Below are positions 11,701 to 14,700 of a stretch of DNA of 39,922 nucleotides, one piece after another. The DNA lies in the UHGV virus genome UHGV-1470964; one strand, written 5' to 3'. Source of the stretch: a virus. The position numbers were made by a program. The stretch's first letter is position 1; each line of letters starts with the position of its first letter.

Positions 11701-14700
11701 GAGCGTGTTATTGACAGGATGAATGATGGCGGCGGGTGCACTCTTGCGTTTACATGGGATAGTTACAGGAGCAGATCGTGACTGGAAAAGAAATCATCCT
11801 GGAATATCTGAAAACTCATGAACAATTCTCCCCACATGAATTAGCACTGATCACCGGAATACCAAATAACAGAATCGCTCAAGCAGCAAGGCATATGGTG
11901 AAACAAGGACATTTGAGTGTTGTTGAGCGTAAGTGGAAGACGGTTATTTATGCAAAACGCAAAGTGAAGAAGGAGCCAATTAAAAGAAATCCAGATGGTA
12001 CGGGGTGGGGATGTGCAAATCCAATGACGGCGTTTATTAATAGGGCGCTTATGGAGGTAAGGCAATGACCATCTACATCACTGAGCTAATAACAGGGGCT
12101 ATTTACACAGTAGCCCTTTTTTATTGGATTAAGAACGAGGGGGATCCTGATGGACACCGTTAACGGAATGTGTTCAGACGCACCGCGTGCCAAAAAATGT
12201 AAATGCGGAAAATCACCGACAATATTCGACATGGAGAGCGGGTGCCAAATCTACTGTGCTAACCACGCCGCTGTGGCGGCCGCGAATTATCGCAGTGCGG
12301 TAACGGAGTGGAATAACCTGAAATCTGTTAGAGAGGGAAGTCATGAATCTTGACGAGCAAGATGCACAAACTATTAGCTCATACATAAGGGCATCAAGAC
12401 CAGATTACAAAGGTCCGGTATTCGTAGATTTATCTCGCCTTGAAGAGATTTACATGTGGAAAGCAAGGTTACTTACGCATTTTGTTATTCGAACGATGAC
12501 TAGCAACATTACAAAACCAATGTAACTGGAGAGGTGAATATGAGCACACTCGCAGACCTTATTCATGCCGATATGGCGGAAGATGGAGCAAGGCGTAATA
12601 GGTACTGGAAATCATCAAGCCTTCCAGTTTGTGAAAGATTCAACCACAGGCCAAAACCAAAACGTAGCCGGCGAGACAAAGTGTTGAAAAAACTCATGCA
12701 AATTAACATGGCTGGTTTTGTCAGATTCGTGAGTGAAACGACTAACGGGGATTGATATGGACGAATCAAGAAAGTCTTTCGAGCAATGGGCATCAAAGCA
12801 ATTCAATATCTCAGTAGAGGAAATTGTTAATAAGCGAATGCTGGGTGATTACCTGCACAACCCAGACTTACATAATGCATGGCAAGCATGGATAGATAGC
12901 AGGGCGGCAATAGAAATTGAGCTACCAAAGCCTCATGCACATCTTATATGGATTCAGGCTGGTCATGCGCCTGACGATTATTGGGATGATGTGGCGGTGT
13001 CATATAGCGAAAAGGATAAATGCTGCGACGGTTCAGACCGCTATCCTGTGCATGCTGGATGGGAAATTGAAGAGGTTCTTCGCGCCGCTGGAATCAAAGT
13101 GAAGGAGTAACGATGAAGCAAATATACATGCTTCGCAACGAAGCAATCAGAAATAACGCCATAGACGTAATACTCTCACTTCCCATCGACGACAAGTCAC
13201 CTCATGAAGTCCATGTTAGAGAACCCAAACGCAGCAAAGCGCAGAATGACCGTATGTGGCCGATGCTGAACGATGTTTCGCGTCAGGTGCTATGGCATGG
13301 TCAACGGCTGGCACCGGAAGACTGGAAAGACCTGTTCACTGCCCTGTGGCTTAAGACCAAAAAACTGGAGCAACGAAGTGTTCCTGGTATCGACGGTGGC
13401 GTTGTCATGCTTGGCGTGCGTACCAGCAAAATGCGAAAGGCCAGCATGACTGAGCTTATCGAAATCATGTTTTGGTTCGGCTCAGAGCGCAACGTGCGGT
13501 GGAGTGATGACTCCCGGCGAGAGTATGAATGGTCACAACGAAAAGGGAGGGCGGCATGAGGCGACAGCGACGAAGTTTCACCGACATCATCTGCGAAAAC
13601 TGCAAATACCTTCCAACGAAGCGCTCCAGAAATAAACGCAAGCAAATCCCAAAAGAATCTGACGTAAAAACCTTCAATTACACGGCTCACCTGTGGGATA
13701 TCCGGTGGCTTAGAGAACGTGCGAGGAAAACAAGGTGATTGACCCAAATCGAAGTTACGAACAAGGAAGTGTCGAGCGGGCTTTAACGTGCGCTAACTGC
13801 GGTCAGAAGCTGCATGTGCTGGAAGTTCACGTGTGTGAGCACTGCTGCGCAGAACTGATGAGCGATCCGAATAGCTCAATGTACGAGGAAGAAGACGATG
13901 AGTGATTTCTCTGAGCTTATTTCCTTCAAAAAAGACAGAGAAGAAATGCGGACTGAATCTGTCTATTACGTTCAACACCGGAATAAACGCTCGGTGCTTG
14001 ATCAGGAGCTGATTATTACCGGAGACCTGGCATTCAGAACATATAAGGCCAGCATGGAAATGAAGGATTTCCCTAAATGTGGTTCTGAAAGAGAAGCAGC
14101 GTTAAAGCTGGCTGAGTGGATGCAGAGAATGGCTGCTGCAATTGAGAATTACTGGAGTGAACCATAATGGCTAACCTACGCAAAGAAGCACGCGGCAGAG
14201 AATGCCAGGTACGTATTTACGGAATATGCAATGGTAATCCTGAAACTACAGTTCTGGCACATTACAGGATGGCTGGAATTTGCGGAACGGGAATGAAGCC
14301 TGACGACCTGATCGGCGCATGGGCTTGTAGCGCGTGTCACGATGAAATCGACCGACGCACCCATAATATCGACAACAAAGACGCCAGACTTTACCACCTC
14401 GAAGGCGTGATCAGGACGCAGTCGATACTGCTGAAGGAGGGGAAGATTAAGCCATGAACGAATATCAGTTTGTGCTTCCATATCCGCCGTCGCTGAACAC
14501 CTACTGGCGAAGACGGGGAAGCCAATACTACATCAGCGATAAAGGCCAGAAATACCGAAAAGACGTTCAGCAAATCATCCGCCAACTCAAGTTAGACATT
14601 TTCACCAAATCACGACTCCGTATCAAAGTCATCGCAGACGTTCCAGACTCCCGCCGCCGCGACCTCGACAACATCCTGAAAGGTTTACTCGACTCCCTTA

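What the first reader, a model, noticed from the sequence alone, without database searches (positions are those of the whole stretch)
12094..12124. Intrinsic terminator within the nin region
A hairpin followed by a T-run sits between early replication genes and the nin genes, consistent with a tR2-like terminator requiring N-mediated antitermination for Q expression.
Basis: partly seen in the sequence, partly recalled or inferred. Interest (0 to 1): 0.2.

Follow-up and report, generated by a model that had tools for sequence, protein, structure and literature searches.

The report
Lambda tR2-type terminator, HK97 allele

Summary
The hairpin and T-run are at the stated coordinates: a 10-bp stem (12094-12103 with 12109-12118), loop TACAC, and TTTTTTATT from 12117. 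It folds at -12.6 kcal/mol (z = -3.7; 0 of 200 shuffles as stable), on the + strand only. It is the only such site on the + strand between pR and Q. It occupies the position of lambda tR2, after the same 32-nt flank that begins at the ATGA stop/start overlap with the upstream gene. It is 100% identical to HK97 32059-32159. The stem is a different allele from lambda's. Both alleles, and a third, keep a GC-rich hairpin and T-run, and the rare stem changes preserve pairing. The window also has lambda-type N (93% identical), nutL and nutR boxB, and Q (99% identical), so N-dependent read-through to Q is the expected logic. The hairpin lies inside the 32-codon ORF ninA (HK97 gp56), a known arrangement; in lambda, ninA translation lowers tR2 efficiency by only about 10%. 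No termination was measured here, and no experiment on the HK97-type allele was found. Verdict: observation confirmed, interpretation supported, already known, low interest.

The parts
12094..12118 (+). Terminator stem-loop: 10 bp including 2 G.U pairs, loop TACAC (12104-12108)
   Evidence: -12.6 kcal/mol, z = -3.66. It is 100% identical to HK97. It is nearly invariant in about 113 viral contigs, and the rare stem changes keep pairing.
12117..12125 (+). T-tract TTTTTTATT. The first two T can close the stem. RNA release is expected at about 12122-12125.
   Evidence: The T-tract is kept in all three hairpin alleles. The release point is inferred from the general geometry of intrinsic terminators.
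12065..12096 (+). Conserved 32-nt flank ATGACCATCTACATCACTGAGCTAATAACAGG. It holds the ninA start (in an ATGA overlap with the upstream stop) and an A-rich stretch complementary to the T-tract. It is also a mosaic recombination joint.
   Evidence: It is shared with lambda, HK97 and P22-like phages and lies behind at least 8 unrelated upstream gene ends. Identity to N7, Dewey and Louie ends at 12096, and identity to HK97 starts at 12065.
12065..12163 (+). ninA (HK97 gp56 homologue): a 32-codon ORF, MTIYITELITGAIYTVALFYWIKNEGDPDGHR, that contains the terminator. GGAGG lies at 12053-12057, 7 nt before the ATG.
   Evidence: ORF; phrog_5907, E = 6.9e-18. HK97 Gp56; annotated 'ninA' in Lahn2, phage L, CUS-3 and phage 21; lambda NinA start site 30 nt before tR2.
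11778..12068 (+). Upstream gene (MarR-family / Ren-like). Its TGA stop (12066-12068) lies 25 nt before the hairpin.
   Evidence: phrog_1687 E = 6.2e-40; phrog_142 (Ren-like) E = 3.5e-13.
8808..8839 (+). nutR: boxA CGCTCTTA (8808-8815) and boxB GCCCTGAAAAAGGGC (8825-8839). This is where N would load onto the pR transcript upstream of the terminator.
   Evidence: boxB has 2 exact matches in the window against 0 in shuffles.
7254..7268 (-). nutL boxB GCCCTGAAGAAGGGC
6653..6985 (-). N antiterminator gene
   Evidence: PF11438 N36, E = 1.7e-26; 93% identical to lambda N, with residues 1-60 identical.
14998..15621 (+). Q late-gene antiterminator, the distal gene whose expression requires read-through of this terminator
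   Evidence: PF03589; 206 of 207 residues identical to lambda Q.

Best explanation
The site is a Rho-independent (intrinsic) terminator of the early rightward (pR) operon and the positional and functional counterpart of lambda tR2.

RNA polymerase that starts at pR and has not been modified by N transcribes the GC-rich hairpin and U-tract at 12094-12125 and releases the RNA at about 12122-12125. The nin genes and Q are then not expressed. Polymerase modified at nutR (8808-8839) by N and the host Nus factors reads through, so Q and then the late genes are expressed.

The terminator lies inside the small ORF ninA, which starts in an ATGA overlap with the upstream stop codon. Terminated transcripts therefore lack the ninA stop codon, and full-length NinA can be made only from read-through RNA.

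Shown here: the hairpin and T-tract and their statistical significance, strand specificity, position, homology to tR2, conservation and pair-preserving variation, and the presence of N, nut and Q. Inferred: that termination occurs, how efficient it is, and that N suppresses it.
For: - Structure and significance.
- Same site and same 32-nt flank as lambda tR2 (lambda 40596-40628).
- 100% identical to HK97.
- Homologous sites are annotated 'tR2', 'terminator' and 'ninA' in Lahn2, phage L, mEp235, O276, 933W and HK75.
- Three hairpin alleles occur at the same site and all keep a stable hairpin (-12.6, -15.7 and -14.1 kcal/mol) and a T-tract, although the lambda and HK97 stems are only about 35% identical internally.
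- Stem changes preserve pairing. In the HK97-type family U-A becomes C-G, U.G becomes C-G and U-A becomes U.G, with 100% of cells paired. In the lambda-type family G-C becomes G.U and then A-U along one P22-like lineage, with 98% of cells paired.
- The two-sided G-C to A-U change also causes a Gly-to-Asp change in NinA. ninA is frameshifted or truncated in 6 contigs that keep the hairpin intact.
- It is the only + strand terminator-like site between pR and Q, and no + strand promoter-like site lies between it and Q.
- N, nutL, nutR and Q are lambda-type.
- Published data for lambda tR2: efficiency in vivo is about 0.9 when at least about 28 nt lie between the upstream stop and the hairpin, and ninA translation lowers it by only about 10% (PMC4824070). 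Without N, transcription that passes tR1 stops at tR2 (PMC7084815).
Against: - No transcript-end or reporter data exist for this phage, and I found none for the HK97-type hairpin.
- The window's stem is weaker than lambda's (-12.6 against -15.7 kcal/mol; 4 G-C pairs and 2 G.U pairs), so efficiency could be lower.
- Formal covariation is underpowered. There is one two-sided change per family, and 253 of 500 and 127 of 500 shuffles reach the observed values.
- The hairpin is inside a translated-looking ORF, and the upstream stop is only 25 nt away. That is near the roughly 27-nt limit below which a trailing ribosome can interfere in the published model.
- None of the 15 phage records carrying this allele annotates a terminator.
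Confidence: 0.9

Rival explanations
1. The hairpin is only a by-product of the ninA coding sequence, which encodes a short hydrophobic peptide, and does not terminate transcription to a useful extent.
For: - The ORF is real-looking. It has an ATGA overlap with the upstream stop and GGAGG 7 nt before the ATG.
- It matches a PHROG family and is annotated as gp56 or ninA in public records.
- Purine-rich SD-like motifs lie 9-13 nt upstream of the ATG in 10 of 11 different upstream contexts.
- The lambda and HK97 alleles have the same length and frame and both encode hydrophobic residues followed by LF.W.
Against: - Two largely unrelated nucleotide sequences both give a stable hairpin directly followed by a T-tract.
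- Stem changes preserve pairing even when they change the peptide non-conservatively (Gly to Asp).
- A Leu-to-Gln change is tolerated in the loop.
- ninA is broken before the hairpin in 6 contigs that keep the hairpin.
- T-tract indels shift the C-terminal frame, and peptide lengths range from 22 to 77 aa.
- Codons 2-9 show 4 synonymous and 7 non-synonymous distinct changes, against a neutral expectation of 18:54.
- Lambda tR2 terminates at about 90% in vivo.
Confidence: 0.04
2. It is a terminator, but read-through is controlled mainly by translation, as in attenuation: ribosomes finishing the upstream gene or translating ninA mask the 5' arm of the stem. On this view N is not the main control.
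For: - The upstream stop codon is only 25 nt from the stem.
- ninA translation runs through the stem.
- In the published lambda system tR2 is almost fully repressed when the stop codon lies a few nt away, and the fitted interference limit is 27 nt.
Against: - In the same study, constructs with 18 and 28 nt of the natural lambda upstream sequence still gave efficiencies of about 0.8 and 0.9. Silencing the ninA start changed efficiency by only about 10%.
- The window's flank differs from lambda's by a single base.
- A complete lambda-type N/nut system is present.
Confidence: 0.05
3. The conserved block is mainly a recombination linker between the replication and nin modules, or a 3'-end stabilising or processing hairpin. 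On this view termination is incidental.
For: - The 32-nt flank sits behind at least 8 unrelated upstream genes. Both hairpin alleles occur in 5 of the recurrent upstream contexts.
- The window itself shows a crossover within this flank.
Against: - A linker role does not explain why the hairpin and T-tract are kept in divergent alleles.
- It does not explain the strand asymmetry.
- The linker role is compatible with, and probably secondary to, the terminator role.
Confidence: 0.02

Closest known systems
Bacteriophage lambda tR2 (intrinsic terminator between ren/ninA and ninB, lambda about 40596-40628, removed by the nin5 deletion)
   Same: - It lies at the same place in the pR operon, after the replication/ren genes and before the nin genes and Q.
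- It has the same 32-nt upstream flank, apart from one base, including the ATGA-linked ninA start.
- It has the same architecture: A-rich flank, GC-rich stem, then T5-6 A T2-3 GG.
- The overall length is the same (35 nt from CAGG to TGG).
- The same N/nut/Q circuit is present.
   Different: - The stem-loop sequence is a different allele: 10 bp with 2 G.U pairs and a 5-nt loop at -12.6 kcal/mol, against 8 bp with an 8-nt loop at -15.7 kcal/mol.
- The pairing register is shifted by one base, and interior identity is about 35%.
- ninA is 32 codons rather than 26.
- The gene that follows is a gp60-like ORF, not ninB.
HK97 gene 56 region (NC_002167 32059-32159) and the same block in IME10, HK544, HK446, mEp506, CUS-3 and Salmonella phage 29485
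   Same: It is 97-100% identical over the 101-nt ninA/hairpin block. The following gp60-like ORF is also the same.
   Different: The upstream gene differs: HK97 has a DnaB-like helicase, the window a MarR/Ren-like gene. The gene after the gp60-like ORF also differs. Those records annotate only the small CDS and no terminator.
Leader-peptide attenuators (for example pyrBI) and other terminators inside short ORFs
   Same: An intrinsic terminator is embedded in a short translated ORF, so ribosome position could in principle affect hairpin folding.
   Different: There is no alternative antiterminator structure and no regulatory codons. The published lambda data show only about a 10% effect of ninA translation. 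The established control here is processive antitermination by N.

Membership tests
Rho-independent (intrinsic) terminator | GC-rich stem-loop (stem of about 5-14 bp, loop of 3-8 nt) that is more stable than expected for its composition | tested here: met
   10-bp stem, 5-nt loop, -12.6 kcal/mol, z = -3.66, 0 of 200 shuffles as stable.
Rho-independent (intrinsic) terminator | A U-rich tract immediately 3' of the stem on the transcribed strand | tested here: met
   TTTTTTATT at 12117-12125. On the opposite strand the tail is TGTTATTAG and the hairpin is not significant.
Rho-independent (intrinsic) terminator | RNA 3' ends are formed in the U-tract by RNA polymerase alone | not testable with these tools
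   This needs in vitro transcription, Term-seq or 3' RACE. It has been shown only for the lambda allele (PMC4824070).
Lambda tR2 orthologue | Located in the pR operon between the replication/ren genes and the nin genes and Q | tested here: met
   Gene map. The site is the only + strand terminator-like site between pR and Q.
Lambda tR2 orthologue | Sequence homology to the lambda tR2/ninA block | tested here: met
   The flank is homologous: 31 of 32 nt are identical to lambda, and the T-tract region is similar. The stem interior is not alignable pair for pair with lambda's, so it is an allelic replacement. It is fully identical to HK97.
Lambda tR2 orthologue | Suppressed by N with nut and the Nus factors, so that Q expression depends on N | not testable with these tools
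   The components are present: N is 93% identical to lambda N with an identical RNA-binding arm, both boxB sites match exactly, and boxA is present at nutR. The dependence itself needs genetics or a reporter assay.
NinA small-protein family (phrog_5907; lambda NinA, HK97 gp56) | A short ORF that starts at the ATGA overlap after the last replication/ren gene, with N-terminus MTIYITELITG and a hydrophobic core | tested here: met
   32-aa ORF; phrog_5907, E = 6.9e-18; annotated ninA in CUS-3. Translation in this phage was not tested.

The most novel reading that the evidence does not exclude
The overlap of ninA with tR2 may be functional dual coding rather than an accident. On this reading, two unrelated hairpin alleles have each been selected both to terminate transcription and to encode the hydrophobic core of a micro-protein. 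That protein can be completed only on N-antiterminated transcripts. Terminated RNAs would be non-stop messages handled by tmRNA, so NinA, or its tagging, would report or tune the antitermination state. The evidence does not exclude this. Length, frame and hydrophobic character are kept between alleles, and an SD-like motif is present in 10 of 11 different upstream contexts. The weak constraint on the peptide and the broken ORFs argue against it.
Probability: 0.1. Interest if true: 0.35.

Novelty: already known. Interest (0 to 1): 0.08.

Why it matters
tR2 is one of the barriers that make Q, and so lysis and virion production, depend on N in lambda-type phages. Recognising it correctly sets the boundary of the delayed-early transcription unit in this phage. 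It adds no new biology. The only mildly useful points are for annotation. The HK97-type allele of tR2 is not marked as a terminator in any of the 15 deposited phage records that carry it. The terminator also lies inside the small ORF ninA and not in an intergenic gap.

Tried and rejected
- Rfam at gathering thresholds over the whole window gave no match, so no curated family covers this element.\n- Pfam has no family for the 32-aa ORF.\n- Formal covariation counts within each allele family were consistent with pairing but had no statistical power, because the sequences are nearly invariant.\n- The lambda and HK97 stems cannot be put into one pair-for-pair alignment, because the register is shifted by one base. 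I treated them as independent alleles, not as covarying homologues.\n- A bidirectional terminator or antisense role was rejected. The minus-strand fold is not significant. The minus-strand promoter-like site at 12248-12219 is one of only 10 such matches where shuffles give 17.7.\n- One viral-contig scan was wasted: pattern ...TAACH, where H includes A, so it re-found the same loci.\n- The scan for other continuations after AACAG found only the compensatory lambda-type variant and no fourth allele.\n- Three contigs carry the ACTGAGCTAATAACAGG motif without the ninA start or a hairpin. I did not follow them up.\n- The lambda ribosome-profiling paper (Liu et al. 2013) and Kroger and Hobom 1982 are not held in the library, so I cite them only through PMC4824070.\n- No tRNA genes were found in the window.

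Full report
**Observation.** The sequence at 12094-12124 reads AGGGGCTATT-TACAC-AGTAGCCCTT followed by TTTTATT. This is a 10-bp stem with 4 G-C, 4 A-U and 2 G.U pairs and a 5-nt loop. Its last two T residues open a run of six T (12117-12122), followed by A and TT. The consensus scan reports the same site. As a 37-nt RNA it folds at -12.6 kcal/mol, against -5.1 +/- 2.05 for dinucleotide-preserving shuffles (z = -3.66; 0 of 200 as stable). Its reverse complement is not significant (z = -1.14). My own scan looked for hairpins of -12 kcal/mol or better followed by at least 6 T in 8 nt. It found 6 sites in the window against 0.56 +/- 0.67 in 100 shuffles.

**Context.** The window is a lambdoid phage. 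The genes and sites established here are:
- a lambda-type N gene on the minus strand at 6653-6985 (PF11438, E = 1.7e-26; 93% identical to lambda N, with the first 60 residues identical);
- nutL boxB at 7254-7268 on the minus strand, and nutR boxA (8808-8815) and boxB (8825-8839) on the + strand;
- an S24/HTH repressor, a cro that I recognise from memory as 434-like (the tools show only HTH domains), and cII;
- on the + strand, an HNH endonuclease ORF, an O-like initiator, a DnaC-like loader and a MarR/Ren-like gene ending at 12068;
- after the hairpin, an unbroken chain of small + strand genes: a gp60-like ORF, three ORFs of unknown function, NinB, further nin-type ORFs, YbcO-like, RusA and Q, which matches lambda Q at 206 of 207 residues.

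No + strand promoter-like or terminator-like site lies between the hairpin and Q.

**Identity.** The segment 12065-12347 is 99.3% identical to HK97 32059-32341, and 12065-12165 is 100% identical. The lambda sequence between ren and ninB reads ATGACCATCTACATTACTGAGCTAATAACAGGCCTGCTGGTAATCGCAGGCCTTTTTATTTGG. From my own knowledge this contains the tR2 hairpin used in many termination studies. That is confirmed by GenBank records that annotate this same block as 'tR2 terminator' and 'ninA' (Lahn2) or as 'terminator' (phage L, mEp235, O276, 933W and HK75). The window shares the first 32 nt with lambda apart from one base and has a similar T-tract. Between them it carries a different stem-loop.

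**Comparative evidence.** Scans of viral contigs found about 230 loci carrying the block. Three hairpin alleles occupy the same site: the lambda type, the HK97/window type, and GGGGCCACTTACACAGTGGCC. Each forms a stable hairpin followed by a T-tract (-15.7, -12.6 and -14.1 kcal/mol).
- The lambda and HK97 types have the same length. Their pairing registers differ by one base and their interiors are about 35% identical. They are best seen as alternative sequences selected for the same structure.
- Within the HK97-type family (about 113 contigs) the stem is almost invariant. The few changes are U-A to C-G, U.G to C-G and U-A to U.G, so 100% of cells remain paired.
- Within the lambda-type family, one P22-like lineage shows G-C, then G.U (phage L), then A-U.
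- Formal shuffle tests have no power with so little variation (253 of 500 and 127 of 500 shuffles reach the observed values). Sliding the register drops pairing from 98-100% to 70% or less.

**The ORF.** The hairpin is not intergenic. A 32-codon ORF (12065-12163) starts in an ATGA overlap with the upstream stop, with GGAGG 7 nt ahead of the ATG. It runs through the hairpin and ends about 36 nt past the T-tract. It matches phrog_5907 and corresponds to HK97 gp56 and lambda/P22 NinA.

I tested whether the hairpin could be a mere by-product of this coding sequence.
- In favour of a real gene: SD-like motifs lie 9-13 nt upstream of the ATG in 10 of 11 different upstream contexts, and frame and hydrophobic character are kept between alleles.
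- Against the peptide being the main constraint: the two-sided stem change causes a Gly-to-Asp change, and a Leu-to-Gln change is tolerated in the loop. T-tract indels shift the C-terminal frame. Six contigs have a frameshift or nonsense mutation before an intact hairpin. Codons 2-9 show 4 synonymous and 7 non-synonymous distinct changes, against a neutral expectation of 18:54.

The RNA structure is the better-conserved feature. NinA may still be made.

**Mechanism.** In lambda, published work puts tR2 efficiency in vivo at about 0.9 once the upstream stop codon is about 28-30 nt away. With 18 nt of the natural upstream sequence it is still about 0.8. Silencing the ninA start changes efficiency by only about 10%. 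Terminated RNAs are non-stop messages for ninA (PMC4824070). Without N, transcription that passes tR1 stops at tR2 (PMC7084815). The nin5 deletion, which removes 40,503-43,307 and so includes this site, is the classical N-bypass (PMC3349717, for the coordinates; the bypass phenotype is from my own knowledge).

The window has the same flank, the same 25-nt distance from stop codon to stem, the same N and nut elements and the same Q. The most likely function is therefore that of lambda tR2: it stops unmodified polymerase before the nin genes and Q and is overridden by N-modified polymerase. This step is inferred. No data exist for the HK97-type hairpin, which is somewhat weaker on paper.

**Mosaicism.** Identity to phages N7, Dewey and Louie, which share the window's replication genes, ends at 12096. 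Identity to HK97 begins at 12065. The window is therefore a recombinant with a crossover inside the conserved 32-nt flank. Both major alleles occur in 5 of the recurrent upstream contexts. This fits the known role of short conserved blocks as exchange points between lambdoid modules.

**Verdict.** The element is a textbook one (tR2), in an allele already present in HK97 and many other sequenced phages. Novelty is 'already known', and interest is low. Two small corrections apply. The terminator lies inside ninA and not between genes. None of the 15 deposited records carrying this allele marks it as a terminator.

Noticed in passing
window 9222-10034 (+): An HNH endonuclease ORF (phrog_16986, with many HNH families) is wedged between cII and the O-like replication initiator. 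It may be a mobile insertion in the early right operon.
   Followed up: partly
window 10344-10568 (+), inside the O-like gene 10037-10933: Iteron-like repeats: a 47-nt pair at 10362-10408 and 10456-10502 (81% identical), and two perfect tandem 21-mers at 10527-10568. This is probably the replication origin.
   Followed up: partly
window 15664-15754 and 16013-16030 (+): A lambda-like pR' (TTGACT, 17 nt, TAAATT) is followed about 35 nt later by the strongest terminator in the window (15726-15754, -17.7 kcal/mol, with T7). This implies a much shorter 6S-like leader than in lambda, although Q is 99% identical to lambda Q. A second terminator lies at 16013-16030.
   Followed up: no
window 7447-7851 (-): A 134-aa ORF with a signal-peptide-like N-terminus ([18 protein letters not shown]...) lies directly downstream of the repressor gene, in the position of rex. 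It matches phrog_2651 (function unknown) and has no Pfam hit. It could be a lysogenic-conversion or exclusion gene.
   Followed up: partly
window 12065-12096 and about 12335-12347: Mosaic joints. Identity to N7, Dewey and Louie ends at 12096, and identity to HK97 spans 12065-12347. The 32-nt ninA 5' flank sits behind at least 8 unrelated upstream genes in other phages, yet ninA codons 2-9 show only weak purifying selection. Why the flank is so conserved is unexplained.
   Followed up: partly
window 9161-9188 (-): An oop-type terminator on the minus strand lies inside the 3' end of cII, as in lambda.
   Followed up: no
loci (3 contigs), motif CACTGAGCTAATAACAGGTAATGCTGAATG: Three viral contigs carry the 17-nt flank motif without the ninA start and without any hairpin or T-tract. 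The junction may lack tR2 in these phages.
   Followed up: no
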